Shown: piece by piece, positions 24,078 through 63,520 of the stretch | How the letters are laid out: every line of letters begins with the position of its first letter | Position numbering within the stretch: the stretch's first letter is position 1 | Virus record (IMG/VR): IMGVR_UViG_2802429175_000002 | DNA from: a virus | Taxonomy: Duplodnaviria > Heunggongvirae > Uroviricota > Caudoviricetes | Direction: 5' to 3' (one strand) | Length of the DNA: 64,000 nt | The notes under the pieces: model-generated | Databases searched by the model: none | Seen by the model: only the letters and a program-made list of their open reading frames with translations | What the model was told of the DNA's origin: nothing | Translations under genes and position numbers: made by a program

Positions 24078-24418
24078 TCGGAGACGTCCACGTAAGGCAG
24101 ATCCTCGTCGAACCAGGCGACAGTTTCGCGGTCGAGGGCCTCGAGGGTGACGTACATTCCCGGGTCGAGGTCCGCGATCTGGCCCTGTGCGGCGTGGACG
24201 GTTACGCGCGCGAGGCTGCCGTCTTCGTTGAAGTAGATACCCAACGCGCGCTTCTCGTGAGACCGCTCCGCCTCGATGGACACCAAGTGGGTAACGGCTC
24301 CGAGGTTGTGGCCGGTAACCTTGGTGCCCACTGCGATAGGCGGTCCAGGCTCGGCGAGCTGAAGCATGCCCTGCGTCTTGGACAGAACCTTGATGCTGTC
24401 CTTCTTCTTGTTACTCAT
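24074..24418 (-). CDS. hypothetical protein
   Basis: 114-aa ORF. The sequence GAACACGAAGGGATACGC upstream of the ATG is a SAS-like ribosome-binding site. Confidence 0.5.
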   Translation of the reverse strand: MSNKKKDSIKVLSKTQGMLQLAEPGPPIAVGTKVTGHNLGAVTHLVSIEAERSHEKRALGIYFNEDGSLARVTVHAAQGQIADLDPGMYVTLEALDRETVAWFDEDLPYVDVSE

Positions 24419-24436
24419 ATGCGTATCCCTTCGTGT

Positions 24437-25240
24437 TCAAAGTTGCCCCGTGCGTTTCCAGAAGCTGTAGTGCAGTCCGATGAGAAAGTCGTTCAGTTCG
24501 TTGCGGTCGACGTGATTAGGGAGGGTGGATCGTTCGATGTTGGTCTCGAGGTTCTGGGTGTAGAGATCCAGCCAGGAAGTGACTTTGTCCACCGAGTACC
24601 GGCCCCGGCGCACATTCCGTAGCCACTCCACCTCGAGTGGCCGCATGGGAATACAGATGTCATGATCCCGCATCAGTTCCGTGCCCTGGATAGCCAGACG
24701 GAGAGCGTGGTACGCCATCTTCGTGTCGAAACCGTACTGCTCCACCAGCTCGCGGCGGTTCTTGTGCTTAGACTTGCCCTTCTCGCCGAGCATCCGGGCT
24801 CGCTGAGCCTTTAGGTATCCGTGGAACCTCCACCCAGCATCCTTGGAGAGGAACAGATTCCGGTTGGATACGATCTGTTGGCCTTCTGGGGACTTGTGGT
24901 AGATGGACTTGGGTGGTGCGAACAATGGCAGTAGCACGGTCGGATTACCCTGCGCTGCAAGACGTGCCCACTTGTTCAGTGCGTACGTTGTATGGTCAGT
25001 GTCCCCGTGTTGGCTGCGCACGCCATCTGGAATGCGAGTCCCATCAGCATGCCAGCGATCGGCATACTGCTCGAACTGCTCAAGTCCAAGAACGCATTCC
25101 GGTGGTGGGATACACACGCCCATCTCGTCGTGGTCATCAGTGTTGGCGAGAGTCACACCGTGCAGACCGGATCCAACTTCAGTGAGGAGAATCAGCCCTC
25201 TCGATGCAATCTCCCTATGGCGAGGAGAGTGGTGGCTCAC
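24437..25240 (-). CDS. Pol-beta superfamily nucleotidyltransferase
   Basis: N-terminal GS-x11-DDHDE motif (GSGLHGVTLANTDDHDEM), characteristic of minimal nucleotidyltransferase folds. 267 aa, translationally coupled (ATGA) to the upstream gene. Confidence 0.55.
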   Translation of the reverse strand: MSHHSPRHREIASRGLILLTEVGSGLHGVTLANTDDHDEMGVCIPPPECVLGLEQFEQYADRWHADGTRIPDGVRSQHGDTDHTTYALNKWARLAAQGNPTVLLPLFAPPKSIYHKSPEGQQIVSNRNLFLSKDAGWRFHGYLKAQRARMLGEKGKSKHKNRRELVEQYGFDTKMAYHALRLAIQGTELMRDHDICIPMRPLEVEWLRNVRRGRYSVDKVTSWLDLYTQNLETNIERSTLPNHVDRNELNDFLIGLHYSFWKRTGQL

Positions 25241-35436: not shown

Positions 35437-35454
35437 TTGAAGGGATACAACCAA

Positions 35455-36081
35455 ATGACCGCTATGATCGATCACCCATCACCGGCTAGCGACCTGGATC
35501 TTGATTGGCGCAGCAAAGCCGTATGCGATCCATCTGATACCGAGTCCCACTTCCAGACGGTGGAAGACCTCGTTGAGGATGGAGTCCCGCAGGAGCTGGC
35601 TACGGAAATGGTGGCCTATGCCGAGCAGCGCGCAAAGGCCACGTGCTCGCGTTGCCCTGTGATGGATAAGTGCCGTACCTGGGCCCTGGAGAATGGGGAG
35701 GAGTTCGGCATCTGGGGTGGAACCACCCCCGCTGAGCGCGCAGCATTGCGTCCCGAGTGGCCCGCGATCAAGAAGATCACCTACCTGCCGGTGGAGCCAC
35801 TGCCTGGTGAAGCTCTTCATGAGCACAACGGTGTGGATACCCGCTACCGCAATCGCCTGGTCAAGGCACGGTTGGCTCACGAGATGCTGTCTTCTCAGCC
35901 CGAGTTCGCTGTGTTCCACCGTCGCGTGGGTCACCAGGGTCGTCAGGCATGCCTGGATGTGGTGGACGCGATCATCGCCAATCCATCCACTCCAACTACG
36001 GATCTAGCTGCACGCATTGGGAAGTCATCGAACTTCTTCAGTCAGCTGTTCAGTTTGGTGTGCCGCGAGCTGGGTATCTAG
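35455..36081 (+). CDS. WhiB-like protein with C-terminal extension
   Basis: ATG preceded by GAAGGGATAC. Cys pattern C-x(n)-CSRCPVMDKC. Confidence 0.5.
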   Translation: MTAMIDHPSPASDLDLDWRSKAVCDPSDTESHFQTVEDLVEDGVPQELATEMVAYAEQRAKATCSRCPVMDKCRTWALENGEEFGIWGGTTPAERAALRPEWPAIKKITYLPVEPLPGEALHEHNGVDTRYRNRLVKARLAHEMLSSQPEFAVFHRRVGHQGRQACLDVVDAIIANPSTPTTDLAARIGKSSNFFSQLFSLVCRELGI

Positions 36082-45761: not shown

Positions 45762-45770
45762 TACTTCAAT

Positions 45771-47280: not shown

Positions 47281-47358
47281 CTCTAAGACTTCCACCTGCC
47301 TGAACGGTGGCTGAACAGGTGCACTGAAGATCGCGTCGGTGCTGAAATGGTGGACCAT

Positions 47359-48040: not shown

Positions 48041-48334
48041 AAAAGCAAAAGTCCTTCCCCTGCCGAGGAGCAAAAGCGCCTTAATCCCAGACCCTCGGGA
48101 ATCTGGGCCGCACAATAGTCCCGCAAGGTGAGTGCGGTTTGTAGGCAAGTACTGCAGCAGTGAGACGGCCATCTCATCGCGAAGGGAAAGCCGCAGAGTA
48201 GCTTTCGGCATGACGAGTGGTTCACGGTAACGGACCAGGCGTGAGAACTAGGTCAGGGATGGCCTGGAGAAGCAGCGAATCAATAATGCTGCGAAAGGTT
48301 CTCGATAGCGGGTGTACTCTCAGCCTCTAACAAT
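48041..48334 (+). ncRNA. second candidate structured non-coding RNA in the tRNA array
   Basis: About 290 nt between tRNA genes, with several GNRA-capped hairpins (CCCGCAAGG, TCGCGAAGGG, CTGCGAAAGG) and no plausible ORF. Confidence 0.3.
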
Positions 48335-48408
48335 CGACTCTTAGCTCAGTTAGGTAAGAGCGACCGGTTGAAGCCCGGTGCGCCCCCGTTCGATTCGGGG
48401 AGAGTCGG
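48335..48408 (+). tRNA. tRNA-Phe (GAA)
   Basis: Perfect acceptor CGACTCT/AGAGTCG, D-arm GCTC...GAGC, anticodon arm ACCGG-TTGAAGC-CCGGT, T-arm CCCCG-TTCGATT-CGGGG. Confidence 0.7.
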
Positions 48409-48529
48409 CGTGTAAGGGAAACCAGGTTCCGCAGCTACTGGTGAAAAGCTGGGCACTCCACGTAAAAGGTCGCGTTGACTCGCGCGGATACGGTAGGCGA
48501 AGAACTGTCCTGCCGGAATGAGTCCTCAT

Positions 48530-48604
48530 GTCGGGGTAGAGAAGTTCGGCCATCTCGCTGTCCTCATAAGTCAGAGACCGTGGGTTCGAATCCCACCCCC
48601 GCCA
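48530..48604 (+). tRNA. tRNA-Met (CAT)
   Basis: Anticodon loop CTCATAA, T-arm GTGGG-TTCGAAT-CCCAC, D-stem GAGA/TCTC. Confidence 0.45.
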
Positions 48605-48663
48605 CGCAAAACCAGGGGCACCTGGTTGGGCCCGCCGCAGCCCAGCGCCAATGCGGCTCCAAT

Positions 48664-48738
48664 CCCGTTGTTGGGCAATGGAGCGCCCACCGCCCTACGA
48701 AGGCGCAACGCATGCAGGTTCGAATCCTGTCAACGGGT
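48664..48738 (+). tRNA. tRNA-Arg (ACG)
   Basis: Perfect acceptor CCCGTTG/CAACGGG, anticodon loop CTACGAA, T-loop TTCGAAT. Confidence 0.5.
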
Positions 48739-48802
48739 CTTAGCGCTGCCGGTACAAAGCCCGAAGAAACAGAGATGCCATGCTGCTCTGGCCAGCGCCA
48801 TA

Positions 48803-48873
48803 CCTTGTGTAGCTCAATGGAAGAGCCCCTCGCTGTGACCGAGGTTATCGCGGTTCAACTCCGCGCATAGGGA
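48803..48873 (+). tRNA. tRNA-His (GTG)
   Basis: D-arm TAGCTCAATGGAAGAGC, anticodon arm CCTCG-CTGTGAC-CGAGG, T-arm CGCGG-TTCAACT-CCGCG. Confidence 0.55.
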
Positions 48874-48897
48874 CGTACAGACACTGAAAGGCTTGAC

Positions 48898-49074
48898 ATG
48901 GTTGCAAAGCTGCGCGCGGGTATTGCCCACGCTGACATCGTCACTGCGGTAAACGCATTGATCGACGGCCTGGACGAGTTCCAGGATGTTCTCGACGATC
49001 TTCGCGAGAAGGTGGAGGAGAAGGTCGTAGCCAAGAAGGCACCGGCCAAGAAGGCAACTGCCGCCGCAGAGTAG
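48898..49074 (+). CDS. small hypothetical protein (58 aa) embedded in the tRNA array
   Basis: ATG with a GAAAGG ribosome-binding site. Product MVAKLRAGIAHADIVTAVNALIDGLDEFQDVLDDLREKVEEKVVAKKAPAKKATAAAE is helical with a Lys/Ala-rich tail. Below the ORF-track cutoff. Confidence 0.4.
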   Translation: MVAKLRAGIAHADIVTAVNALIDGLDEFQDVLDDLREKVEEKVVAKKAPAKKATAAAE

Positions 49075-49098
49075 CGGCCTCATCTATAATCGATAGAC

Positions 49099-49189
49099 GG
49101 TGTGTCTCTCGGCGAGAGGGCGGTTCGAGTCCGCAGCGTGAGGTTCTCACGTCATGGGCCCCTGGCAGGTTCGATTCCTGCGCACACCA
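49099..49189 (+). tRNA. atypical 91-nt tRNA-like gene (identity unresolved)
   Basis: 7-bp acceptor GGTGTGT/GCACACC with discriminator A, and a 3' T-arm GCAGG-TTCGATT-CCTGC. The interior holds a second TTCGAGT hairpin and extra hairpins. Preceded by a TATAAT box at 49085. Confidence 0.3.
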
Positions 49190-49194
49190 CCTAT

Positions 49195-49266
49195 GGCGAA
49201 GTGAGTGAGTGGCTAGCTGGCAGGCTGCAACCCTGACCCACGCCGGTTCGATCCCGGCCTTCGTCT
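49195..49266 (+). tRNA. tRNA-Cys (GCA)
   Basis: Acceptor GGCGAAG/CTTCGTC, anticodon loop CTGCAAC, T-arm GCCGG-TTCGATC-CCGGC. Confidence 0.45.
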
Positions 49267-49323
49267 CGACGCGCTCGGTGAGTAGGAGTCACCGTAAAGC
49301 CGACGCGGCAATATCGGCACTAA

Positions 49324-49398
49324 GCTCCAATAGCCCAACATGGCAGAGGCGACAGGCTTAGACCCTGTGCGGTGGGGGTTCGAATCCCTCTTGGAGTA
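49324..49398 (+). tRNA. class-I-shaped tRNA with Leu anticodon (TAG)
   Basis: Anticodon arm ACAGG-CTTAGAC-CCTGT, 5-nt variable loop, 3-bp D-stem with a 12-nt loop, discriminator A. Confidence 0.4.
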
Positions 49399-49465
49399 CG
49401 CATCCTGAGGCCGGTGGCAACTGGTAAGGGGATCCGCAGCCACAGCGGTCCCGCCTCAGGACTCT

Positions 49466-49540
49466 GGTCGGCTAGGCAAACCTGGCAAAGCCGCCGAGCT
49501 CAAACCTCGGTGTCTGCGAGTTCGATCCTCGCGCCGACTA
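49466..49540 (+). tRNA. class-I-shaped tRNA with Leu anticodon (CAA)
   Basis: All 75 nt are accounted for. Anticodon arm CCGAG-CTCAAAC-CTCGG, 5-nt variable loop TGTCT, T-arm GCGAG-TTCGATC-CTCGC, discriminator A. Confidence 0.45.
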
Positions 49541-49541
49541 C

Positions 49542-49613
49542 TGGGCGTTGGTGAAACGGCATCACCCTAGACTTTTAATCTACGAGTTGAGGGTTCAAAT
49601 CCCTTGCGCCCTA
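49542..49613 (+). tRNA. tRNA-Lys (TTT)
   Basis: D-stem GTGA/TCAC, anticodon loop CTTTTAA, T-arm GAGGG-TTCAAAT-CCCTT. Confidence 0.45.
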
Positions 49614-49614
49614 A

Positions 49615-49686
49615 GGGAGTATAGTTAAGCGGTTATAACTCTTGGCTCTTACCCATGAATCCCAGGTTCGACCCCTGGTGCTCCCA
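49615..49686 (+). tRNA. tRNA-Lys (CTT)
   Basis: Acceptor GGGAGTA/TGCTCCC, D-stem GTTA/TAAC, anticodon loop CTCTTAC, T-arm CCAGG-TTCGACC-CCTGG. Confidence 0.45.
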
Positions 49687-49687
49687 C

Positions 49688-49759
49688 TGGTTCGTCATCC
49701 AATGGTGAGGATACCGTTCTGATAAGACGGCAATCACAGTTCAATTCTGTGCGAACCTA
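49688..49759 (+). tRNA. tRNA-Ile (GAT)
   Basis: D-stem ATCC/GGAT, anticodon arm CCGTT-CTGATAA-GACGG, T-arm CACAG-TTCAATT-CTGTG. Confidence 0.5.
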
Positions 49760-49763
49760 CCAA

Positions 49764-49830
49764 GCGGTAGTTCCGGAAAGTGCGTGGCCTCCTAAGCCGC
49801 TGCAAGGGTGTTCGAGTCACCTCTACCGCT
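49764..49830 (+). tRNA. tRNA-Arg (CCT), short D-arm
   Basis: Perfect acceptor GCGGTAG/CTACCGC, anticodon arm GTGGC-CTCCTAA-GCCGC, T-loop TTCGAGT. Only 67 nt. Confidence 0.4.
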
Positions 49831-49833
49831 CCA

Positions 49834-49909
49834 AGCGAGTGTGATGTTTTAACGGTTTAGCATCCCTGTCTTCCAAACAGGTCGTGCCAGTTCGAATCTG
49901 GTCACTCGT
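49834..49909 (+). tRNA. tRNA-Gly (TCC)
   Basis: Anticodon arm CCTGT-CTTCCAA-ACAGG, T-arm GCCAG-TTCGAAT-CTGGT, acceptor GCGAGTG/CACTCGT. Confidence 0.45.
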
Positions 49910-50035
49910 TCGACGCCCTGAGATGGGCGACCCTCCAGTGGAGACTGCGGTTGTCGCTGGAAGTTTGGCGCGGATAGGGCATCCGCCAGGGACCTCTCGC
50001 TGCAGCATTGGCACCCTCAACCAAAAGCCCAATAT

Positions 50036-50103
50036 GCCTGGTTAGTCTGGGACGAAAGCTGGCTTACATCCAGCTAAGCGGGGTTCGATTCCTCGACTGG
50101 GTA
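50036..50103 (+). tRNA. tRNA-Val (TAC), reduced D-arm
   Basis: Anticodon arm GCTGG-CTTACAT-CCAGC, T-arm CGGGG-TTCGATT-CCTCG. Acceptor has G-U pairs. 68 nt. Confidence 0.4.
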
Positions 50104-50177
50104 CGTAGCGGGAAGGATCGGTTCGATACCGAGCCAGTTTCGGCTGGATAGTGTAGAGGAATGCACACCCGCGCCAG

Positions 50178-50251
50178 GCCTCATTAGCTCATCCGGCTAG
50201 AGCACTTCCTTAGTAACGAAGAGGCGCGGGGTTCGAGACCTCGATGAGGCC
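50178..50251 (+). tRNA. tRNA with AGT anticodon (Thr-like), tentative
   Basis: Perfect acceptor GCCTCAT/ATGAGGC, D-arm GCTC...GAGC, anticodon loop TTAGTAA, T-arm CGGGG-TTCGAGA-CCTCG. Confidence 0.4.
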
Positions 50252-50343
50252 CTATGTTCAGTCTGCGGCCATGTTCAGGAATCCTGAACAGCTACGTGGA
50301 TTGAACACAAGTTCAGACCCAGTCTTGTCAAAACGGGGACCAT

Positions 50344-50417
50344 GGGGGCGCATGTTCCAAGGTGGCGACCGATCCTTGCAAGATTGGTGTGGTCGCGTTC
50401 AATTCGCACCGTCTCCA
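50344..50417 (+). tRNA. tRNA-Ala (TGC)
   Basis: Anticodon arm CGATC-CTTGCAA-GATTG, acceptor GGGGGCG/CGTCTCC with a G3:U70 pair, discriminator A, T-loop TTCAATT. Confidence 0.4.
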
Positions 50418-50524
50418 CGGGAGTTTTGGCCAAGCAGCTCCAGGGTTTGATTCCCAGAAAGTTGGCTCAGGTTGTTCGTACCTGCCCCGGTGGCCTCGAA
50501 AACCACTGGGGGTAAACGTCCAAT

Positions 50525-50598
50525 CGAGTCGTAGCTTAGTGGACTAAAGCACTGCCCTGTCACGGCAGGGGACGCGGGTTCAAATCCCGTCGACTTGA
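50525..50598 (+). tRNA. tRNA-Asp (GTC)
   Basis: D-stem GCTT/AAGC, anticodon arm CTGCC-CTGTCAC-GGCAG, T-arm GCGGG-TTCAAAT-CCCGT. Confidence 0.6.
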
Positions 50599-50599
50599 C

Positions 50600-50938
50600 G
50601 TGAGTAGAGAACGAGTACTGTCTGTAACCCTCGCGGATTGTCGTGTTGACACATTCCGGTCTGGGGGCAAGGGCGGTCAAAACCAGAACAAGCGCGAGAC
50701 AGGTGTGCGGATTACCCACGAACCGTCCGGTGCTGTGGGTGAGTCGCGCGAGGAGCGTAGCCAGCTGCAGAACAAGCAGGCTGCGTTCAAGCGTATGGCG
50801 AGCTCGCCCAAGTTCCAGCTATGGGTGAAACGTCAGGTGGGTCGCGAAGACCTACAGCGTGCCCAGGTAGAGCGTGATATGTGGCCGGTGAACCTCAAGA
50901 CTGAGGTCCGCGAATCCGGCAAGTGGGTTGAGCAATAA
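50600..50938 (+). CDS. arfB: ArfB-like peptidyl-tRNA hydrolase (release-factor GGQ domain)
   Basis: GTG start directly after tRNA-Asp. GGQ motif RSGGKGGQNQNKRETGVRITHEPSG with a basic C-terminal tail. Confidence 0.6.
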   Translation: MSRERVLSVTLADCRVDTFRSGGKGGQNQNKRETGVRITHEPSGAVGESREERSQLQNKQAAFKRMASSPKFQLWVKRQVGREDLQRAQVERDMWPVNLKTEVRESGKWVEQ

Positions 50939-50943
50939 CCCTA

Positions 50944-51014
50944 AGGTCCATTGGTGTAGTGAGAGCACACCACCCTCTCAAGGTGTTGGTGCGGGTTTGA
51001 TTCCCGCATGGACT
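50944..51014 (+). tRNA. tRNA-Glu (CTC)
   Basis: Acceptor GGTCCAT/ATGGACT, anticodon loop CTCTCAA, T-arm GCGGG-TTTGATT-CCCGC. Confidence 0.5.
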
Positions 51015-51019
51015 ACTCG

Positions 51020-57620: not shown

Positions 57621-57766
57621 TGAGCCAACCTCCCCGACTCCTGGAGGTAGTCACCCCACCATTCGGGGCCGTAGTCGATCTCTTCCTCGTCGAACATTTT
57701 GGGTATCCCTTCCGTCGTGTATTTAGAACGTAAACCCGACCCACTTAATACAGGTCAAGGCATGTT

Positions 57767-58234
57767 TTAGGCCATAAGCAAGTAGGCCTTCAATGACCGG
57801 TACGCGCGGTCACTGGAGATGTCACCCGTGTGGCTATCCCTGCAGTGGCGGCAGAGCTTGTACCTGTCTGCAATGAACTTCCTTGACCGACCGGCCAATT
57901 GGGGGAGAGGGTGTAGCACCGTCTCGCCGTTGATGCACCGGCACGTAAGCGTGGTGTGAACAGCTCCACCACGCACCTGGTAGTAGCGGCTCCAGCGCCC
58001 GTGGCGCTGCCAACGCCCGTGGGCGTACAACATGGACGGGCCCATGTCTCTCAACGCCTCTGCGAGGCTCTCAGCCCGTTTTGCATCCTTCAGCCACACC
58101 GCACGGTCATACTTGCGGCGTAGGTTGCGTGCTTTCAGAACCATCTTGGCCCAATAGCGCTCGTGCTCGACAATCTCAACGCGCGTGAGCCGTTCGTGTT
58201 CAACTGGTGTTGATGTCCAACCTTCCAATAACAT
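57767..58234 (-). CDS. HNH-like zinc-binding endonuclease (tentative)
   Basis: Start MLLEGWTSTP preceded by the SAS-like AGAGGAAGGGATCAC. Pattern CRCINGETVLH...CRHCRDSH. Confidence 0.45.
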   Translation of the reverse strand: MLLEGWTSTPVEHERLTRVEIVEHERYWAKMVLKARNLRRKYDRAVWLKDAKRAESLAEALRDMGPSMLYAHGRWQRHGRWSRYYQVRGGAVHTTLTCRCINGETVLHPLPQLAGRSRKFIADRYKLCRHCRDSHTGDISSDRAYRSLKAYLLMA

Positions 58235-58359
58235 GTGATCCCTTCCTCTGGGCATAGAAAAAGGGCACGGGTTCGTGAGTCCCATGCCCTGAGTGCTGAA
58301 AACAGCAGAGCCGCAACGAGAATTGCTCCCGCTGCGGCTCCTCCGTACTCAGATGTGTG

Positions 58360-58575
58360 TTAGATGACCGGTGTTACGTCTGCCCGTCCGGTCGCCTGAC
58401 CATTGTTGGTGTAGATGATGGATCCGTTCTCATCGAGATAGTCATGTACGTCGGACCCGCCGTGCTCAGATGCTAAGGCGTTGGCAGTGGCGATGAGCTG
58501 CGGAAGATCCTTCCCCTCAGCATCGTTCGTGAATCCGTCATCCATTTTCAGCGCGATGCGGTATTGCTGTGTCAA
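58360..58575 (-). CDS. hypothetical protein
   Basis: 71-aa ORF. Confidence 0.4.
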   Translation of the reverse strand: MTQQYRIALKMDDGFTNDAEGKDLPQLIATANALASEHGGSDVHDYLDENGSIIYTNNGQATGRADVTPVI

Positions 58576-58829
58576 TTGACGTCCTTGTGTTGCTGCAGGT
58601 AGGCGATAACCTGACCGGCGACATCCTTGGGTGCATTAGTTTGACCGGTAACGGTGGAAGCTACCTCGTGAGTGCCGAACAGTGCTGCTGTAGCGGTGCC
58701 CTTAGGACCGTAGTAGACCCAAACGCCGTATTGCCCGCGCACATACACGCGACTGCGCTCATCGACCAGTTGCGCTAGGGCCCACCCGTTTTCCTTGGCT
58801 GCCTGTTCTATACGCTCACGCCCGTTCAC
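58572..58829 (-). CDS. hypothetical protein
   Basis: 85-aa ORF. Confidence 0.45.
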   Translation of the reverse strand: MNGRERIEQAAKENGWALAQLVDERSRVYVRGQYGVWVYYGPKGTATAALFGTHEVASTVTGQTNAPKDVAGQVIAYLQQHKDVN

Positions 58830-59023
58830 ACATGGCCCCGATACTTGAGCGCGTATCGCTTGATGGCCTTAACAGTCGGTGAAAGCATGTCGGAACCAAG
58901 GTCCACATCAGTCGTGGATTCGAGACGGTCTAGGAAGTCGTGCCAATCTACTGGCCCGCTGGGGTACCAGCCATCAACGATCGACTCAATTGCCTCTTCC
59001 ATCTCTGCTGTCAGTTCGGTCAT
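58826..59023 (-). CDS. hypothetical protein
   Basis: 65-aa ORF. Confidence 0.4.
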   Translation of the reverse strand: MTELTAEMEEAIESIVDGWYPSGPVDWHDFLDRLESTTDVDLGSDMLSPTVKAIKRYALKYRGHV

Positions 59024-59026
59024 GTG

Positions 59027-59245
59027 CTAACTCCCTGGTATTACTTGCCGACACTGATATTCAACCTGGTCGCACAAGACTGGATTGGTTGTCCAACCCC
59101 CATACGTGCCTGGTGTGTTCCATGTGGGCATGAGGGGACCGTTGTATCCCGGCTGATACTTGCACACATCGAAACGTGCACAGTCGGGAACCGTTGGGGG
59201 AGTAAGTATTACGCTACCAGCGATGAGGATAGCGGGGATAATCAC
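59027..59245 (-). CDS. small secreted/membrane Cys-rich protein
   Basis: N-terminal hydrophobic segment MIIPAILIAGSVIL followed by four Cys. Confidence 0.4.
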   Translation of the reverse strand: MIIPAILIAGSVILTPPTVPDCARFDVCKYQPGYNGPLMPTWNTPGTYGGWTTNPVLCDQVEYQCRQVIPGS

Positions 59246-59469
59246 TGACTCCCCAACCGTATTGAACTGACGTAGATGTCGTTGACCTCACTGTCAAGCA
59301 ACATGAGTTCGGTGTTGAGCCTGTTGGCAATACCCACAGCCTCAGCAAGTGTGCGGGCGGAGGTCCAAGGCTCATAGCCCGGTTCGTTCTCCGTGATGCG
59401 AGCAACGGTGTATTGCTGAGTCGCCCGATCGAAATAGGACTCGTCGGTGTGGTAGCAGACTCGTGCCAT
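59242..59469 (-). CDS. hypothetical protein
   Basis: Start MARVCYHTDES preceded by a SAS-like site and an ESAS-like upstream element. Confidence 0.45.
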   Translation of the reverse strand: MARVCYHTDESYFDRATQQYTVARITENEPGYEPWTSARTLAEAVGIANRLNTELMLLDSEVNDIYVSSIRLGSQ

Positions 59470-59492
59470 GGTTCGTACCCCTTCTCGTGTGT

Positions 59493-59552
59493 GGTGCTGA
59501 GTACACCAGACGGGCCGCGAGAAACACCCGCGCCCCATCCTGCCTACTCAGG
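59493..59552 (-). repeat. ESAS-like imperfect inverted-repeat element (copy A)
   Basis: GGTGCTGAGTACACCAGACGG - hairpin - CATCCTGCCTACTCAGG. Confidence 0.5.
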
Positions 59553-59556
59553 CTCA

Positions 59557-59919
59557 TTAGCTATAGACAACCTCACCGAACAAACCAGCTTGAATGATGC
59601 AGTCGTAGTCGATTGCGTCCGCGTCCGCCTCATCCCCGTTGGTTCGGTTGTACGCCGTGATGCGACTGCGGGTGGCACCGTCATATCCGGCGTTGAAGTA
59701 CTCAACCTTGCCGTCACAGACAAGGCGCAACCCTCGCGCAACCACATCAATGTCAACAGTGGCTGCGGGCGACTCGCCCTCGGGTAGGAATTCAACGACA
59801 TTGGTACCGTCATCTCGCACGTGCCATGACTGGTGGAGTGCCCAGTACCTAGCCGCTGCCATGCCTTGGTCCAAGATGTCTCCAAGGAATGTGACCCGCT
59901 CTTCTGTGCGATTTATCAT
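59557..59919 (-). CDS. hypothetical protein
   Basis: 120-aa ORF. Confidence 0.45.
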   Translation of the reverse strand: MINRTEERVTFLGDILDQGMAAARYWALHQSWHVRDDGTNVVEFLPEGESPAATVDIDVVARGLRLVCDGKVEYFNAGYDGATRSRITAYNRTNGDEADADAIDYDCIIQAGLFGEVVYS

Positions 59920-59922
59920 GGT

Positions 59923-60129
59923 CTAAACCCTCTCTACCAGGATGTTTGCAACATGCTCCCCATTGCGGACAATTATGCCGTCGTCAACCGACACATCGCC
60001 GCTCTTACGGCCAAACCAGTACAGTGCGTGCTGCTCAGCCTCCTTATAGGCCTCGGCTCGGTTGACCCTGCCAGGCCCTTGCCACATGACCCCGGTTCCA
60101 TCGGTTCCGAGGATGCTGGATGTATGCAT
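59923..60129 (-). CDS. hypothetical protein
   Basis: Start MHTSSILG immediately downstream of a SAS (GGAAGGGATATCTAATG). Confidence 0.45.
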   Translation of the reverse strand: MHTSSILGTDGTGVMWQGPGRVNRAEAYKEAEQHALYWFGRKSGDVSVDDGIIVRNGEHVANILVERV

Positions 60130-60154
60130 TAGATATCCCTTCCGTGTATCGCCG

Positions 60155-60209
60155 TTGAATACAGCAGGCGTACGACAGCGCGGCTGCCGCACACCCTCCC
60201 TATTCAGCC
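60155..60209 (-). repeat. ESAS-like element (copy B, degenerate)
   Basis: TTGAATACAGCAGGCG ... CCCTCCCTATTCAGCC. Confidence 0.4.
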
Positions 60210-60446
60210 GAGGATGTCTTTCAGTTCCCTCTTGATCCGGCGCGCTACCTCACCGCGCCAGGTTCCAGAGTTGGCCAGGAAGTGCAGGACGATGGACTCA
60301 GCAGAGTCACACCCATAACGTTCGTCTATGTCTCCGAGTGCAGCCATCGCAACCAAGTAGGGGACGGCGCCGAAATATGGCTTAGTCCAGTTCCTCTTGA
60401 TCTCGTCCGCAATCACATTCAACGGTCGTGCCGTGGTGGTTGTCAT
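60204..60446 (-). CDS. hypothetical protein
   Basis: Start MTTTTARPL preceded by a SAS. Confidence 0.45.
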   Translation of the reverse strand: MTTTTARPLNVIADEIKRNWTKPYFGAVPYLVAMAALGDIDERYGCDSAESIVLHFLANSGTWRGEVARRIKRELKDILG

Positions 60447-60463
60447 TAGTATCCCTTCCGTGT

Positions 60464-60537
60464 GTGCTGCCTAAATACAGCAGGCGGGCCGCGAAAAGGC
60501 TTGTACCCCTTCGTGACCCACCCTCCCTACTTAGACG
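60464..60537 (-). repeat. ESAS-like element (copy C)
   Basis: GTGCTGCCTAAATACAGCAGGCGGGCCGCGAAAAGG ... CCCTCCCTACTTAGACGG. Confidence 0.45.
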
Positions 60538-60604
60538 GTTTGCATTGGGCTATGAAGATTGCCGCGCAGATAACCCACGCGACAATCCATCCGGCATCCA
60601 CAAC

Positions 60605-61369
60605 TCAGCCGATCGCTCGCGCGAACTCGGCCTGACGTCCATCTCGCTGGCCATGGCTATAGCCGTCACGGTCAAATCGACTGCGAGTCTTGGCCTGACG
60701 AAGGTTCGGGTGAGCGTCTTGCATGGCAATCTCAGCCCGCTGCGCATCACCCCGGTAGAGCACTAGGGCAGCGCCACCGACAGACTCAATGGCGATGGTC
60801 TCCTGCTCGTGAATGCGTGACTCGATGGTCTGTGCATATCCCGCAAGCCAAGAGCGCCGGTATGTCTTGAGCCGTCCGGCGTCTTTCACCACCTTGGTAG
60901 TGAATGTGTTACTCGACCAGTCGTACCGCTCTTGTATCCGTTGGTATTCGGATGATGGTCGCACGTTCTCCACAAGTCGAACCATCTGCGGTCGCAACAT
61001 CTCCCATAGGAACTGGAGACGCTCGATGTGGTGAGGAACGCCGTACACCCATACAACGTAAGTACCACCACTGCTCGCATATACGGTGTGGCAGTGCAGG
61101 GCCCGAGCCATGCCATGTAGCAGTAGCGCTTGAGCTGACTGATACTTCCCGCGCACAAACACTTCCCATTGGATAGCGTTCGGTAGGTCTGAGATGTCCA
61201 AACCCTCTTTACGGGCATGGATTTGAGCCATGTCTAGCCCGTACTTGGCCACAATCTCGAACGCGCGAGCTTGAAACACACCCTCTTCGGGCGTACCCGC
61301 GACATCCTCAGCCTGACGGAGAAGCTTGGCTACTTTCTCAGTTATCTTGGCACGCTTATTGTCGTCCAT
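60605..61369 (-). CDS. hypothetical protein
   Basis: Start MDDNKRAK preceded by a SAS (ACACACGGAAGGGATACTAATG). 254 aa. Confidence 0.5.
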
Positions 61370-61391
61370 TAGTATCCCTTCCGTGTGTGTT

Positions 61392-61451
61392 GGTGCTGAA
61401 TACACCAGGCATACAACGGGTTACCCCGCTGTACACCCTGCCTATTCAGGC
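61392..61451 (-). repeat. ESAS-like element (copy D)
   Basis: GGTGCTGAATACACCAGGC - ACAACGGGTTACCCCGCTGT hairpin - CACCCTGCCTATTCAGGC. Confidence 0.5.
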
Positions 61452-61868
61452 CGAGAAGCGATGCCATGTGAGTGCGCTGTAAGTACGGCTGTTGACCTCA
61501 GCCCATGTGATGGTGCCGTCCTTGGCAACGTGGTAGATGTACTCAGCGCCTGAGTTGTACAGATCATCGCCAGGGCGAATCAGGTAGTTATCAGCGTCGA
61601 GATAGCGCACGCCGTAACCTGGTACAGACTCAGCCCGGTCAGTGCCAAGGTGGTTGTTCGGGTTGTCTTCTCCGAAAATCGATGACCAGCCGCCGAATTC
61701 GGCACCGGCCAGGATGGTTGCGCGGAACTTATCCACCCCATCGCGTTCGATGATCTTGCTATATACCGACAAGCGGCCATAGTCCCCGTCCGGGTAACCG
61801 TCGCTATGCACGTATACGCCAGCGTCGCCGGTATCAGTCGCAATCATGAGGATTGAACGTGTAGACAT
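61446..61868 (-). CDS. hypothetical protein
   Basis: Start MSTRSILM preceded by a SAS. Confidence 0.45.
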   Translation of the reverse strand: MSTRSILMIATDTGDAGVYVHSDGYPDGDYGRLSVYSKIIERDGVDKFRATILAGAEFGGWSSIFGEDNPNNHLGTDRAESVPGYGVRYLDADNYLIRPGDDLYNSGAEYIYHVAKDGTITWAEVNSRTYSALTWHRFSA

Positions 61869-61937
61869 TTTGTATCCCTTCCGTGTGGTGAAACCATCCG
61901 ACCACGCACCCAAACGATGCAGGTCAATGGATGTTTT

Positions 61938-61996
61938 GGTGCTAGATACACCAAGCGGGCCGCGAGAAGAACTCGCGACCCACTCTGCCTATCTAG
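61938..61996 (-). repeat. ESAS-like element (copy E)
   Basis: GGTGCTAGATACACCAAGCGGGCCGCGAGAAGAACTCGCGACCC ... CTGCCTATCTAG. Confidence 0.5.
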
Positions 61997-61998
61997 AA

Positions 61999-62583
61999 CT
62001 ATTCGGCTTTGCCTCTAATGGCTACCCATACTGTTGCCTGCATAACCGAGGCAGGAACACCAGCGTGTGCCGCAGCCTTGCGGTATGCGTCGGCTACCTT
62101 GTCATATGCGCCAACCCACGCAATCGTTTGTGCGGCAATGGCTTTATCCATCGTGCCGAACGCTGCACGTGCTGCCCATACATCTACTGTGACAGCGTCG
62201 GTATCTCCAAGGATGTTGCGCGCGAACGCTTTAACCTTGGGTCCGTTACCTAAACCGTCTAGGCCCTGTTCAATGACAGCAGCCGCGCGACGAACGTTCG
62301 CCCCCATTACTCCAGAGCGCAGGGGAGACCCTGCTAGGTGGTACTCAGCATCCCGTAGGTTGTCCACCCATCGGGTTTGTGGTGAGTATGCCGCGATAAC
62401 ACCGGCCACCACCTCATTGCCGACATTGTGACGTTCGGCAGCCTCAATAACCCACTGCCGTGCAGCGTCATACCACTTGGTACCCGCATCATGCTGCCAC
62501 GGTGCCGCGCTCTGCCAGATTGAATAAAGACGGTCTGCCATCTCATCGACTGAGAGGCTGTCAGACTTCCGATTCTTTGACAT
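61999..62583 (-). CDS. hypothetical protein
   Basis: Start MSKNRKSD preceded by a SAS. Confidence 0.45.
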   Translation of the reverse strand: MSKNRKSDSLSVDEMADRLYSIWQSAAPWQHDAGTKWYDAARQWVIEAAERHNVGNEVVAGVIAAYSPQTRWVDNLRDAEYHLAGSPLRSGVMGANVRRAAAVIEQGLDGLGNGPKVKAFARNILGDTDAVTVDVWAARAAFGTMDKAIAAQTIAWVGAYDKVADAYRKAAAHAGVPASVMQATVWVAIRGKAE

Positions 62584-62672
62584 GCGTATCCCTTCCGTGT
62601 GTAGACAATCTCGTGATTGATTGCCACAACCGGACACGGTTAGACCGTGCCCGACTGAAGCGAGCAATACGC

Positions 62673-63206
62673 TTAGAGTTGTTCCATTTGTGCGAGATAT
62701 GCACGCGCGCTGTCTAGTTCGGCAACGCGCTCTTGAACTTCAGCCTCAGCCTTTTCTTTCTCGCCGACGGCGTTCGCTACCTTGTACTTGGCCGCGCCAA
62801 CGATCGCCGCCTTAGACGCTTCGGTCGTTAGGTACCTGTCAGCTACAACGGCTGCGAGCTGTTCTAGCTTCTTCCGCGCGCTATCTGTGAGCTCGCGGAA
62901 TGTTCCACCTGCACTAGGTGAGTAGAGGACTTTCTTAAACCCCTTGTCGGTCAATACCTTGCGTTCAGCATCACCCCAGCGGCCAGGCGCAAAATCTGCG
63001 CTACACCGCCATGCGTCGTAGTCCTTATTGTTGATCGTTACGAGTCCCTGGAATCGAATGTGAACAGCAGGGGTCACAAACTCGTTGTCGTTGTCATATC
63101 TAGGCACATGAACGTAAAGCGAAACCGTGGCTTTACCGCTTACGCCCCGATCGTTAATGACGATAGTGGCAACACCATCATCATTGGAAACCTCTGTGAA
63201 TTCCAT
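62673..63206 (-). CDS. hypothetical protein
   Basis: Start MEFTEVSN preceded by a SAS. The C-terminus is coiled-coil-like. Confidence 0.45.
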   Translation of the reverse strand: MEFTEVSNDDGVATIVINDRGVSGKATVSLYVHVPRYDNDNEFVTPAVHIRFQGLVTINNKDYDAWRCSADFAPGRWGDAERKVLTDKGFKKVLYSPSAGGTFRELTDSARKKLEQLAAVVADRYLTTEASKAAIVGAAKYKVANAVGEKEKAEAEVQERVAELDSARAYLAQMEQL

Positions 63207-63289
63207 ATCTAATCCCTTCCGTGTGTGGATTGTGTGTAGTGAGCACACAACGCACACACCTAAACGGGGTTAGGTGCGACGCAATGCAA

Positions 63290-63437
63290 TCACTCTTCAT
63301 CGTCAAAATATGAGCTCACTTCCTCGCCTGTTGGGCGGAGGTAGACACGAACCGAGCGCGCCCAGTAATTAGGTAGATTCTGTGCGATTTCCCTAGCATC
63401 TACATTTTCGTCATCAGTCCATACAACGATGTCCATT
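63290..63437 (-). CDS. small hypothetical protein (about 48 aa), tentative
   Basis: Start MDIVVWTDDE preceded by a SAS. Coordinates are accurate to within 1 nt. Confidence 0.3.
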
Positions 63438-63457
63438 TATTGTCCCTTCCGTGTGAT

Positions 63458-63520
63458 GGTGAAATACACCAGACGGACAACGGGCCGCGAAAAATACCGT
63501 TGTCCATCCTGCCTATTCCA
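63458..63520 (-). repeat. ESAS-like element (copy H)
   Basis: GGTGAAATACACCAGACGG - GGACAACGG...CCGTTGTCC hairpin - CATCCTGCCTATTCC. Confidence 0.5.

What the first reader, a model, noticed from the sequence alone, without database searches (positions are those of the whole stretch)
57690..63520. Conserved start-associated sequence plus a roughly 60-bp imperfect inverted-repeat element upstream of many leftward genes
At least ten leftward genes have starts at 58234, 59469, 60129, 60446, 61369, 61868, 62583, 63206 and 63437 (and, as a variant, 24418). In mRNA sense each start is immediately preceded by a near-identical CACACGGAAGGGATAC(TA)ATG. The plus strand shows this as ...CATTAGTATCCCTTCCGTGTG. 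The same GAAGGGATAC core precedes the + strand WhiB-like gene at 35455. Six of these leftward genes also carry, 5-10 nt further upstream, a 55-75-bp element with two conserved arms, GGTGCTGA(A/G)TACACCAG(A/G)CGG and C(A/C)TCCTGCCTA(T/C)TCAGG. The arms are imperfect inverted repeats of each other and flank a variable GC-rich hairpin. Cluster K mycobacteriophages are known to carry start-associated sequences and extended start-associated sequences. The architecture here is analogous but the sequence family is different, and this one is confined to one arm of the genome. The element could control translation (an extended Shine-Dalgarno), act as an RNA-processing or terminator-antiterminator unit, or bind a dimeric regulator.
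Basis: partly seen in the sequence, partly recalled or inferred. Interest (0 to 1): 0.75.

Follow-up and report, generated by a model that had tools for sequence, protein, structure and literature searches.

The report
Cluster M phage intergenic RNA repeats
A Mycobacterium prophage of the MabI / Cluster M lineage puts the same small cassette, a very stable RNA hairpin followed by a fixed 16-base ribosome-binding leader, in front of about ten leftward genes. This repeat family has already been reported in Cluster M mycobacteriophages, but as far as I could find its function has never been tested.

Summary
Ten leftward genes between 57.7 and 63.5 kb start 5-8 nt after CACACGGAAGGGAUAC or a variant. 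Seven copies of a 53-64-nt hairpin lie in the same stretch.

It is not a new sequence family. The window is a relative of M. abscessus MabI prophages, which group with Cluster M mycobacteriophages. Aziz, Rey and Bongo carry CACACGGA(GA)AGGGA in the same place, preceded by the same hairpin. The literature calls these Cluster M conserved repeats CR3/CR4 with upstream stem-loops.

New here:
- The hairpin is a sense-strand structure. 97% of cells are paired, 19 of 22 pairs show compensatory changes, two G.U pairs are invariant, and there are conserved G.G and A.G mismatches. The antisense strand folds 13-22 kcal/mol worse.
- The lower stem holds a stop triplet.
- The 3' arm can refold with the linker into a second hairpin.
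- Breaks in homology with relatives cluster at the repeat.

Best reading (inferred): an intercistronic RNA cassette, made of a processing or stability hairpin plus a standard ribosome-binding site, that also serves as a recombination joint. The Cluster K SAS/ESAS, terminator, promoter and DNA-operator readings each failed a test here.

Verdict: a new member of a known kind, of moderate interest.

The parts
57695..57718 (-). Start codon plus a diverged leader (ACGACGGAAGGGAUACCCAAAAUG) of a 48-codon leftward ORF
   Evidence: (3 mismatches)
58232..58249 (-). Start codon plus a diverged leader (AGAGGAAGGGAUCACAUG) of gene 57767-58234
58296..58352 (-). Hairpin copy 1 (24 bp, -37.8 kcal/mol). It is not followed directly by a leader. 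Its 3' arm is U-rich, and a separate hairpin with a T-run lies just downstream at 58257-58289.
   Evidence: 47.5 bits; z = -6.3
59467..59491 (-). Start codon plus leader variant CACACGAGAAGGGGUACGAACCAUG. It keeps the GA found in Cluster M copies.
59496..59552 (-). Hairpin copy 2 (-38.8 kcal/mol). Its 3' arm plus the linker CACCA can refold as hairpin B.
   Evidence: 73.8 bits; z = -7.2
60127..60148 (-). Start codon plus leader UACACGGAAGGGAUAUCUAAUG of gene 59923-60129
60155..60207 (-). Hairpin copy 3 (-33.7 kcal/mol). The TGA of upstream gene 60204-60446 is positions 2-4 of the 5' arm.
   Evidence: (63.3 bits)
60444..60464 (-). Start codon plus consensus leader CACACGGAAGGGAUACUAAUG of gene 60204-60446
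   Evidence: (0 mismatches)
60471..60534 (-). Hairpin copy 4 (27 bp, -39.3 kcal/mol)
   Evidence: 68.6 bits; z = -7.2
61367..61387 (-). Start codon plus consensus leader of gene 60605-61369
61396..61449 (-). Hairpin copy 5, the best match to the family model. The TGA of upstream gene 61446-61868 is positions 2-4 of the 5' arm.
   Evidence: 82.6 bits; z = -7.7
61866..61887 (-). Start codon plus consensus leader of gene 61446-61868
61942..61996 (-). Hairpin copy 6. It is separated from its leader by a 54-nt insert that holds a second palindromic repeat.
   Evidence: 52.9 bits, hairpin part only; z = -7.7
62581..62601 (-). Start codon plus consensus leader of gene 61999-62583 (DUF7178). It is preceded by unrelated small hairpins.
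63204..63225 (-). Start codon plus leader CACACGGAAGGGAUUAGAUAUG of gene 62673-63206. It is preceded by unrelated hairpins.
63434..63455 (-). Start codon plus leader CACACGGAAGGGACAAUAAAUG of gene 63290-63436
63460..63520 (-). Hairpin copy 7 (-30 kcal/mol, 13-nt loop)
   Evidence: 64.9 bits; z = -5.9
24416..24437 (-). Outlying leader variant ACACGAAGGGAUACGCAUAUG before gene 24074-24418. No hairpin.
35438..35457 (+). Partial leader UGAAGGGAUACAACCAAAUG before a rightward WhiB-domain gene. No hairpin.

Best explanation
This is the MabI-prophage version of the Cluster M mycobacteriophage intergenic repeat system (conserved repeats CR3/CR4 with an upstream stem-loop). It works as an intercistronic RNA cassette that fills the gap between the stop codon of one leftward gene and the start codon of the next.

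SHOWN:
1. A 53-64-nt hairpin of 21-27 bp forms on the mRNA-sense strand.
   - The lower stem is conserved: 7 bp, and positions 2-4 form a stop triplet (UGA, UAA or UAG) in most arm variants.
   - Above it come a G.G mismatch (most copies), an invariant G.U pair, a covarying G-C/C-G pair, an A.G mismatch and another G.U pair.
   - The upper stem is GC-rich and differs between copies.
2. A 3-14-nt linker is complementary to the 3' arm. When the 5' arm is unavailable, the 3' arm refolds into a small hairpin ('B') next to the leader.
3. A 13-16-nt leader, CACACGGAAGGGAUAC, follows. Its GGAAGGGA can form 8 pairs with the UCCUUUCU-3' end of 16S rRNA.
4. An ATG lies 5-8 nt further on (5-10 nt across the family).

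INFERRED:
- The leader is a standardised ribosome-binding site used by genes that are not translationally coupled to their upstream neighbour.
- The long hairpin insulates that site. It probably also acts as an RNA processing or stability signal in a polycistronic transcript, like the RNase III sites between phage T7 genes. The cut would fall in the conserved mismatch zone. The upstream message would keep a protective 3' hairpin. The downstream message would be free to form hairpin B at its new 5' end.

BY-PRODUCT (shown by comparison): because the same roughly 80-nt cassette recurs, it serves as a homologous-recombination joint at which genes are swapped between related phages.
For: Identity with the Cluster M repeats:
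- The window matches MabI prophages prophiGD54-2, prophiT49-2 and prophi86-1 at about 85% identity, and Cluster M phages at about 76%. The literature files MabI under Cluster M.
- CACACGGARAAGGGA occurs 10, 7 and 5 times on the minus strand of the right arms of Aziz, Rey and Bongo, in front of ATGs and behind the same hairpin.
- One covariance model finds 12-16 copies in each relative, and all matches with E below 0.02 are on the minus strand.
- blastn of one element against 50,697 phage records finds only MabI and Cluster M phages.

RNA structure:
- On a sequence-only MAFFT alignment of 19 copies, 97.4% of cells are paired against 72.5% in shuffles and 36-54% when partners are slid. 19 of 22 pairs show compensatory changes.
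- RNAalifold finds the same fold independently.
- Across 90 model matches, 94.5% of cells are paired.
- G.U pairs are invariant at two positions in 19 of 19 copies.
- The sense strand folds at -30 to -39 kcal/mol (z = -5.9 to -7.7). The antisense strand folds at -14 to -24 kcal/mol.

Stop triplet and position:
- 18 of 21 distinct arms have a stop triplet at positions 2-4 by my reading of the arm table.
- The upstream ORF ends between -18 and +5 of the arm base in 23 of 29 copies.

Hairpin B:
- 26 of 27 distinct copies fold it at -5 to -12 kcal/mol, mean z = -3.7.
- It appears in all six window copies tested when the 5' arm is held single-stranded, and the leader stays unpaired.

Ribosome-binding role:
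- 64 of 66 linked starts are ATG, and the spacing is 5-10 nt. The duplex with the 16S tail is -9.8 kcal/mol.
- Genes without the leader overlap their upstream neighbour.

Recombination joints:
- 10 of 42 homology-block ends (6 of 24 distinct) fall in the 5.1% of the region occupied by leaders, P = 4e-5 and 1e-3.
- The same gene (MSAE...) follows three different upstream contexts in T49, p86 and L010, joined at the leader.

RNase III analogy: the helix length reaches the 22-bp ideal substrate. Mismatches at target sites favour single-strand cuts that leave stabilising 3' hairpins (PMC3867540).
Against: - No expression, cleavage or ribosome data exist for these genes. The published M. abscessus RNA-seq text does not mention MabI right-arm expression.
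- The processing step is an analogy only. RNase III specificity in mycobacteria was not examined, and a 3'-end stabiliser or a pure insulator would look the same in sequence.
- The predicted accessibility of the leader is only modestly higher than at neighbouring genes without the leader (0.54 against 0.42).
- Hairpin B rests on few independent arm types. At copies without the canonical hairpin, small upstream hairpins are barely above the GC-rich background (mean -8.9 against -6.3 kcal/mol).
- Sense-strand specificity also fits single-stranded DNA.
- The copies used for alignment A1 were pre-selected for the hairpin geometry. The unselected folds and the model search agree with them.
- The primary Cluster M paper could not be read. 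The exact mapping onto the names CR3 and CR4 is therefore unverified.
Confidence: 0.6

Rival explanations
1. Termination-reinitiation device. The upstream ribosome stops at the stop triplet built into the base of the hairpin. The hairpin brings that stop close in space to the leader at its 3' base. The 3' arm refolds into hairpin B, and the released ribosome or 30S subunit is handed to the next start. This would be a bacterial counterpart of hairpin-mediated shunting or coupling.
For: - A stop triplet sits at positions 2-4 of the 5' arm in 18 of 21 distinct arms. A second stop lies in another frame at positions 6-8 in about half.
- In 12 of 29 copies the upstream ORF actually ends at one of these stops. 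In most others it ends within 18 nt before the arm.
- The 5' arm is SD-like (GGGAGG or GGAGGAG) and pairs with the 16S tail at -11.4 to -11.6 kcal/mol.
- Holding the 5' arm open yields hairpin B and leaves the leader free.
Against: - Nearly half of the upstream ORFs stop before the arm rather than in it.
- The leader is predicted free in both conformations, so no on/off logic is evident.
- Stop triplets in two frames are equally expected if the cassette must terminate whatever ORF recombination places upstream.
- No experimental precedent was found in mycobacteria.
Confidence: 0.13
2. The hairpins are transcription terminators or attenuators, so each gene or module is its own transcription unit.
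For: - The hairpins lie directly after stop codons.
- Copy 58296-58352 is flagged as terminator-like (stem, then GCTGTTTTCA).
- Several Cluster M copies have true U tracts, for example Aziz ...CTAGGGGGTTTTTGCTG.
Against: - None of the other six window copies passes the terminator scan. The full hairpin is followed by a C/A-rich linker and leader.
- No promoter-like site lies between the hairpin and the next start. The gap is 3-14 nt, and the scan found 3 promoter-like sites in the region against 4.4 expected, none in the elements. Termination would therefore silence the downstream genes.
- The candidate -10-like bases of the 3' arm covary with the 5' arm instead of being conserved.
Confidence: 0.1
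3. DNA-level element: either the inverted arms bind a dimeric phage regulator (as proposed for Cluster K ESAS), or the hairpin forms in single-stranded DNA as a recombination or transposition site (attC-, REP- or MITE-like).
For: - The arm sequences are conserved beyond what pairing alone requires.
- Mosaic junctions cluster at the cassette.
- Strand-specific G.T pairs would also fit a single-stranded DNA hairpin.
- For ESAS, the Cluster K authors favoured DNA-binding proteins.
Against: - For a duplex-DNA operator, the two half-sites differ consistently at four positions (G.G, G.U, A.G, G.U), and pairing is kept by compensatory changes. That is the opposite of what was reported for ESAS.
- For a mobile element, internal sequences differ between copies. 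All copies share one orientation and one precise position between a stop codon and a leader. I saw no flanking direct repeats (not searched systematically), and no transposase or tyrosine recombinase is annotated in this arm of the relatives.
- The left-end block of leftward genes, on the same DNA strand, has no copy.
Confidence: 0.08
4. The motif is only a strong Shine-Dalgarno site spread by local duplication, and the hairpins have no function.
For: - GGAAGGGA pairs with the 16S tail.
- Four of the seven inner hairpins share UCGCGGCCCG, which points to common descent.
Against: - The CACAC prefix and the spacer bases are conserved but have no rRNA partner.
- The cassette is kept across MabI, M1 and M2 phages in front of unrelated genes.
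- The hairpin shows compensatory changes at 19 of 22 pairs.
Confidence: 0.05

Closest known systems
Cluster M mycobacteriophage conserved repeats CR3/CR4 with upstream stem-loops (Pope et al. 2014, J Virol 88:2461; as summarised in PMC7953290)
   Same: - Same phage lineage.
- Same location: between leftward genes in the rightmost region.
- Same core sequence, CACACGGA(GA)AGGGA, 5-10 nt before an ATG.
- Same hairpin: one covariance model detects both.
   Different: - The MabI-type copies lack the GA dinucleotide (CACACGGAAGGGA) and add a conserved UAC.
- Their 5' arms read AGG(G/C)AGG rather than GGAGGAG.
- I found no description of the repeats in MabI prophages in the two M. abscessus prophage papers.
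- The exact published consensus could not be checked.
[quoted passage not shown] 2011, PMC3203893)
   Same: - A short asymmetric repeat sits a few nt before starts, mostly ATG.
- It is restricted to the non-structural arm.
- It occurs at genes with long upstream gaps.
- It contains an SD core plus conserved bases with no rRNA partner.
- About half the copies are preceded by imperfect inverted repeats.
- Function is untested.
   Different: - The sequence differs: GGGATAGGAGCCC is not enriched here.
- ESAS arms are 17 bp with a 4-13 bp spacer, and their variation does not support RNA pairing.
- Here the arms enclose a 25-40-nt hairpin, and the variation strongly supports pairing.
RNase III processing sites between phage T7 genes (general properties from PMC3867540; the T7 details are from my own knowledge)
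   Same: - Intercistronic position.
- Hairpins of about 50-60 nt with at least two helical turns.
- A conserved lower stem with non-Watson-Crick positions and a variable upper stem.
- The expected outcome is a 3' hairpin on the upstream message.
   Different: - No cleavage has been shown.
- The host is a mycobacterium.
- The non-canonical zone consists of two 1x1 mismatches rather than an asymmetric internal loop.
- The fixed leader and the alternative hairpin B have no T7 counterpart that I know of.
PeSL (promoter-early stem-loop) cassettes of T4-type phages (PMC2839356, PMC4122927)
   Same: Composite intergenic repeats flank small variable genes of unknown function and serve as points of homologous exchange between otherwise unrelated sequences.
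   Different: PeSLs are a terminator plus a sigma-70 promoter. Here there is no promoter and usually no U tract, and the conserved partner of the hairpin is a ribosome-binding leader.

Membership tests
Cluster M CR3/CR4 repeat plus stem-loop | The genome belongs to the Cluster M / MabI lineage | tested here: met
   About 85% DNA identity to prophiGD54-2, prophiT49-2 and prophi86-1, and about 76% to Rey, Aziz and others. There is a tRNA array and a tmRNA. MabI is filed under Cluster M.
Cluster M CR3/CR4 repeat plus stem-loop | A short conserved repeat lies between many leftward genes of the rightmost region | tested here: met
   Ten copies at 57.7-63.5 kb, none elsewhere apart from two partial outliers. 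The left-end leftward blocks of GD54-2 and Aziz have none.
Cluster M CR3/CR4 repeat plus stem-loop | Same sequence as the repeat in Bongo, Rey and Aziz | tested here: met
   The Cluster M copies read CACACGGAGAAGGGA (10, 7 and 5 exact copies). The window reads CACACGGAAGGGA, a 2-nt deletion. Window copy 59469 and L010 copy 9999 keep the GA.
Cluster M CR3/CR4 repeat plus stem-loop | A stem-loop lies immediately upstream of the repeat | tested here: met
   Seven hairpins in the window. Model R1 scores window and Cluster M copies alike at 47-83 bits.
Cluster M CR3/CR4 repeat plus stem-loop | Match to the consensus printed in Pope et al. 2014, and assignment to CR3 versus CR4 | not testable with these tools
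   The paper is not held in the library. Only the summary in PMC7953290 was available.
Cluster K SAS | GGGATAGGAGCCC (up to 2 mismatches), 3-7 nt before start codons | tested here: not met
   2 hits against 1.78 expected, neither at a start.
Cluster K ESAS | 17-bp imperfect inverted repeats with a 4-13 bp spacer, whose variation does not support RNA pairing | tested here: not met
   The arms are 14 nt and enclose 25-40 nt. 19 of 22 pairs show compensatory changes. ESAS definition.
Intrinsic terminator | A GC-rich hairpin followed directly by a U tract | tested here: not met
   Only copy 58296-58352 is flagged. The other six are followed by a C/A-rich linker.
RNase III processing site | A double-stranded helix of about two turns (22 bp), with local mismatches at the target | tested here: met
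   21-27 bp, with conserved G.G and A.G mismatches. Criterion from PMC3867540.
RNase III processing site | Cleavage by RNase III in vivo or in vitro | not testable with these tools
   No transcript-end data are available. The RNA-seq text of PMC8092301 does not cover these genes.
PeSL-type shuffling cassette | Homology breakpoints between related phages coincide with the repeat | tested here: met
   10 of 42 block ends fall at leaders that occupy 5.1% of the region, P = 4e-5. Counting distinct ends, 6 of 24, P = 1e-3.
PeSL-type shuffling cassette | The repeat contains a promoter | tested here: not met
   No promoter-like site lies in any element.
Any Rfam family | A match at the gathering score | tested here: not met
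   No hit at 57-64 kb.

The most novel reading that the evidence does not exclude
The cassette may be a two-state RNA processing module, a natural counterpart of synthetic 'insulator' parts.
- In the primary polycistronic transcript the long hairpin forms.
- A double-strand-specific nuclease cuts in the conserved G.G / G.U / A.G zone.
- The upstream message keeps the GC-rich upper hairpin as a 3' protector.
- The freed 3' arm snaps onto the linker to give a 5'-terminal hairpin (B) that protects the downstream message.
- Hairpin B presents the fixed leader CACACGGAAGGGAUAC to ribosomes.
Every swapped-in gene would then get the same message ends and the same translation rate, whatever its neighbours.
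Probability: 0.2. Interest if true: 0.65.

Novelty: new member of a known kind. Interest (0 to 1): 0.4.

Why it matters
Start-linked repeats in mycobacteriophages (Cluster K SAS/ESAS, Cluster M CR3/CR4) have been known for more than a decade without a tested function.

This window adds three things:
- The Cluster M family extends into prophages of the pathogen M. abscessus.
- Unlike what was reported for ESAS, its inverted repeat is a strand-specific folded structure with conserved non-canonical pairs and a built-in alternative fold.
- That gives concrete, cheap experiments: transcript-end mapping, an rnc mutant, and two-cistron reporters.

If the cassette standardises expression of newly acquired genes and also serves as the joint where they are exchanged, it would link gene-expression design to mosaic genome evolution. 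It could also supply portable expression parts for mycobacterial engineering.

If it is only a conserved ribosome-binding site behind a stabilising hairpin, it is ordinary.

Tried and rejected
- Public-collection scans with the 14-mer CACACGGAAGGGAT (viral contigs and genome contigs). Only L010 (IMGVR_UViG_2693429628_000002) was a true relative.
- Reading the primary Cluster M paper and a Hatfull review. Neither is held.
- Full-text search for the sequence string. Only irrelevant hits.
- Rfam. Nothing in the region.
- Cluster K SAS consensus. At the chance level.
- Promoter reading of the 3' arm or of TAGTAT on the opposite strand. The spacer is not conserved in Cluster M copies, the 3'-arm bases covary with the 5' arm, and the promoter scan is at background.
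- H-type pseudoknot combining the outer stem with hairpin B. Rejected on geometry (my own reasoning): the two connecting loops would have zero length.
- 'Every leader is preceded by a small hairpin' as a general rule. At non-canonical copies the signal is hardly above the GC-rich background.
- Accessibility of the leader as strong evidence. The difference from neighbouring genes is small.
- A 'longest open frame' heuristic for upstream stop codons. It mis-assigned 5 of 29 cases, with offsets from 21 to 1190, so only the bulk pattern is used.
- Functions of the downstream genes. All unknown: DUF7178, DUF2786/DUF7168 and PHROGs of unknown function. They give no clue to timing or regulon.

Full report
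WHAT IS THERE

GTATCCCTTCCGTGTG (+ strand) with up to 3 mismatches occurs 8 times, all at 57.7-63.5 kb, against 0.51 expected. The core TCCCTTCC occurs 13 times against 2.2 expected.

In mRNA sense, ten leftward genes begin 5-8 nt after CACACGGAAGGGAUAC or a variant.
- Seven are close to consensus: starts 60129, 60446, 61369, 61868, 62583, 63206 and 63436.
- Three are diverged: starts 57697, 58234 and 59469.
- Neighbouring leftward genes without the motif overlap the stop codon of the gene before them.

Two partial outliers exist. One is at 24418 (- strand). The other is at 35455 (+ strand), before a gene with a WhiB domain.

The N-terminal coding sequences after the motif are unrelated. The repeats are therefore not duplicated gene 5' ends.

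WHERE THE WINDOW COMES FROM

- The right arm matches M. abscessus prophages prophiGD54-2, prophiT49-2 and prophi86-1 at 82-86% identity in patches.
- The structural region matches the same prophages at about 84%, and Cluster M mycobacteriophages (Rey, Aziz, MrMagoo, Estes and others) at about 76%.
- These prophages form cluster MabI, which the literature groups with Cluster M.
- The window carries the Cluster M hallmarks: a tRNA array, a tmRNA and a serine-integrase-sized ORF (465 aa) at the position of the annotated integrases of the relatives.

THE REPEAT IS ALREADY KNOWN IN THE SISTER GROUP

[quoted passage not shown] It cites Pope et al. 2014 for this. The primary paper is not in the library, so I tested the link directly.
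- Upstream regions of the leftward right-arm genes of Aziz read ...CACACGGAGAAGGGAA(N5-9)ATG, behind hairpins with arms such as CTGAATCGGTAGGG...CCTGGTCAATTCAG.
- CACACGGARAAGGGA occurs 10, 7 and 5 times on the minus strand of the Aziz, Rey and Bongo right arms.
- The window's motif is the same sequence with GA deleted. Two MabI-type copies still keep the GA.
- A blastn of one whole element against 50,697 phage records finds only MabI prophages and Cluster M phages. The few other hits are chance matches inside coding genes.
- The Cluster K SAS consensus is at the chance level.

ANATOMY OF THE HAIRPIN

Minimum-energy folds of all copies and a geometry parse give one plan, from the base upward:
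- a 7-bp lower stem (CUGAAUA:UAUUCAG and variants);
- a 1x1 G.G mismatch;
- two pairs (G.U, then G-C or C-G);
- a 1x1 A.G mismatch;
- a G.U pair;
- 10-17 further pairs of a GC-rich upper stem whose sequence differs between copies;
- a loop of 3-13 nt.

On a MAFFT alignment of 19 copies from the window and five relatives (GD54-2, T49-2, L010, Aziz/Rey and Bongo), made from sequence alone, this structure has:
- 97.4% of cells paired, against 72.5% in column shuffles and 36-54% with partners slid;
- compensatory changes at 19 of 22 pairs;
- two G.U pairs invariant in 19 of 19 copies.

RNAalifold predicts the same fold (21 pairs, 18 with compensatory changes).

A caveat applies. The 19 copies were chosen after a filter for this geometry. 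The unfiltered folds and the model search below agree with them.

A covariance model finds seven hairpin copies in the window, all on the minus strand and all at 58.28-63.52 kb. It finds 12-16 copies in each relative. Plus-strand matches appear only at E above 0.02. On the 90 matches, 94.5% of cells pair (this alignment is fitted to the model).

The seven window hairpins are at 58296-58352, 59496-59552, 60155-60207, 60471-60534, 61396-61449, 61942-61996 and 63460-63520.
- Sense strand: -30 to -39 kcal/mol, z = -5.9 to -7.7.
- Reverse complements: only -14 to -24 kcal/mol.

The structure is therefore selected on the mRNA-sense strand. This differs from Cluster K ESAS, where the authors found that variation does not support RNA pairing and favoured DNA-binding proteins.

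POSITION AND EXTRA FEATURES

- By my reading of the arm table, the lower stem carries a stop triplet at positions 2-4 in 18 of 21 distinct arms, and a second stop in another frame at positions 6-8 in about half. The 3' arm changes to match.
- The upstream ORF ends between 18 nt before and 5 nt into the arm in 23 of 29 copies. In 12 of 29 it ends at one of the built-in stops (the heuristic fails in a few cases).
- The hairpin is followed by a 3-14-nt linker, the leader, 5-10 nt, and then ATG in 64 of 66 cases.
- GGAAGGGA can pair over 8 positions with UCCUUUCU-3' (-9.8 kcal/mol). The sequence of the 16S 3' end is taken from general knowledge of mycobacterial rRNA.
- The CACAC prefix has no rRNA partner.

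The 3' arm (CUG[G/C]UG) is complementary to the linker (CA[C/G]CAG). The G/C choice matches in the arm, in the linker and in the 5' arm.
- 26 of 27 distinct copies fold this small hairpin B (-5 to -12 kcal/mol, mean z = -3.7).
- Hairpin B excludes the lower stem of the long hairpin.
- If the 5' arm is held single-stranded, all six window copies tested switch to 'upper hairpin plus B', and the leader stays unpaired.
- Outside the canonical copies, the evidence for a small hairpin next to the leader is weak.
- The accessibility of the leader is only modestly above that of neighbouring genes.

WHAT IT IS NOT

- Terminator: the scan flags only copy 58296-58352. The other six are followed by C/A-rich sequence.
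- Promoter: no promoter-like site lies in any element, and the candidate -10 bases covary with the 5' arm.
- Strand-wide feature: the left-end blocks of leftward genes in prophiGD54-2 and Aziz, on the same DNA strand, have neither the hairpin nor the leader. The cassette belongs to the right-arm block, not to the strand.
- Known RNA family: no Rfam family matches.
- Gene function gives no clue: the downstream genes are all of unknown function.

RECOMBINATION JOINTS

blastn of 57-64 kb against four MabI relatives gives patchy homology.
- Block ends fall at 61369, 61860/61863, 62586/62605, 63207/63212 and 63441/63443. These are the positions of the leaders.
- 10 of 42 ends (6 of 24 distinct) fall in the 5.1% of the region occupied by leaders, P = 4e-5 and 1e-3.
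- In T49-2 the only match around 61.4 kb is the 81-nt cassette itself. In prophi86-1 the only match around 61.9 kb is the 145-nt leader-insert-hairpin stretch.
- The same gene (MSAE...) follows three different upstream contexts in T49-2, prophi86-1 and L010, joined at the leader.

This parallels the PeSL cassettes of T4-type phages. Those are promoter-terminator units, which these are not.

MECHANISM

Shown:
- a conserved, strand-specific hairpin;
- a conserved leader that can pair with the 16S tail at the normal distance from ATG;
- exclusive use at genes that are not overlapped by their upstream neighbour;
- an alternative fold of the 3' arm;
- mosaic junctions at the cassette.

Inferred:
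- The unit is an intercistronic RNA cassette that gives each gene module a standard, insulated ribosome-binding site.
- The hairpin is long enough (21-27 bp) for a double-strand-specific nuclease. The ideal RNase III substrate is 22 bp, and mismatches at the target favour single-strand cuts that leave stabilising 3' hairpins.
- On that basis I favour a processing or stability role like the RNase III sites between T7 genes. Hairpin B would become a 5'-terminal protector after the cut. This last step is the least secure.

The main rival is termination-reinitiation across the hairpin, suggested by the built-in stop triplets and the SD-like 5' arm. No transcript or ribosome data exist for these genes. 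The function of the analogous Cluster K repeats was still described as unverified in 2025.

VERDICT

The finding is real and well described. It is a new member (MabI type) of a repeat system already reported for Cluster M phages. Its function remains untested, and the structural evidence assembled here makes that function directly testable.

Noticed in passing
window 47883-48326 (+): A full-length match to GOLLD RNA (RF02032, 193 bits against a gathering score of 150). It lies inside the tRNA array, with a tRNA (47969-48040) nested in it.
   Followed up: no
window 45643-51015 (+): A tmRNA (45771-46164) and about 18 tRNA genes. This is the translational toolkit typical of Cluster M / MabI phages.
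   Followed up: no
window 61899-61925 (-), between hairpin 61942-61996 and the leader at 61872-61887: A second palindromic repeat, GACCUGCAUCGUUUGGGUGCGUGGUC. Related copies sit directly before the leader of other genes in prophiGD54-2 (L002 near 23880 and 21480), prophi86-1 (L004 near 12680), L010 (near 10020) and T49-2. Their arm changes keep the pairing (GACCAGCA/UGCUGGUC, GACCAGU/ACUGGUC). It could be another Cluster M conserved repeat, possibly promoter- or operator-associated.
   Followed up: partly
window 58257-58289 (-): A separate GC-rich hairpin (GGGCAUGGGACUCACGAACCCGUGCCC) followed by UUUUUC. It lies between hairpin copy 1 and the leader of gene 58234 and looks like a conventional intrinsic terminator. 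The scan did not list it.
   Followed up: partly
window 60527-60601 (-): An unannotated 24-codon hydrophobic ORF (VDAGWIVAWVICAAIFIAQCKPSK). It starts 3 nt after the stop of gene 60605-61369 and ends at the UAG inside the 5' arm of hairpin 60471-60534. The homologous gap in prophiGD54-2 has no annotated gene.
   Followed up: partly
window hairpins 59496-59552, 60471-60534, 61942-61996 and 63460-63520: Four of the seven upper hairpins share U(U/C)UCGCGGCCCG, but in different structural roles: part of the stem in three and part of a 13-nt loop in 63460-63520. This suggests descent from one ancestral copy with later remodelling.
   Followed up: no
L001 (Aziz) 18469-18481 and 20534-20548; L005 (Rey) 10827-10839; L245 (Bongo) 11682-11694: In several Cluster M copies the 5' arm of the hairpin is itself a near-copy of the leader (CACACGGAGGAGAG against CACACGGAGAAGGGA). 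The 3' arm is then partly complementary to the real leader as well.
   Followed up: no
L246 (prophiGD54-2, 5405-8774) and L247 (Aziz, 225-4550): The left-end blocks of leftward genes are tightly overlapped and contain no leader or hairpin. In a circularised phage genome this block would lie upstream of the right-arm block on the same leftward reading direction.
   Followed up: partly
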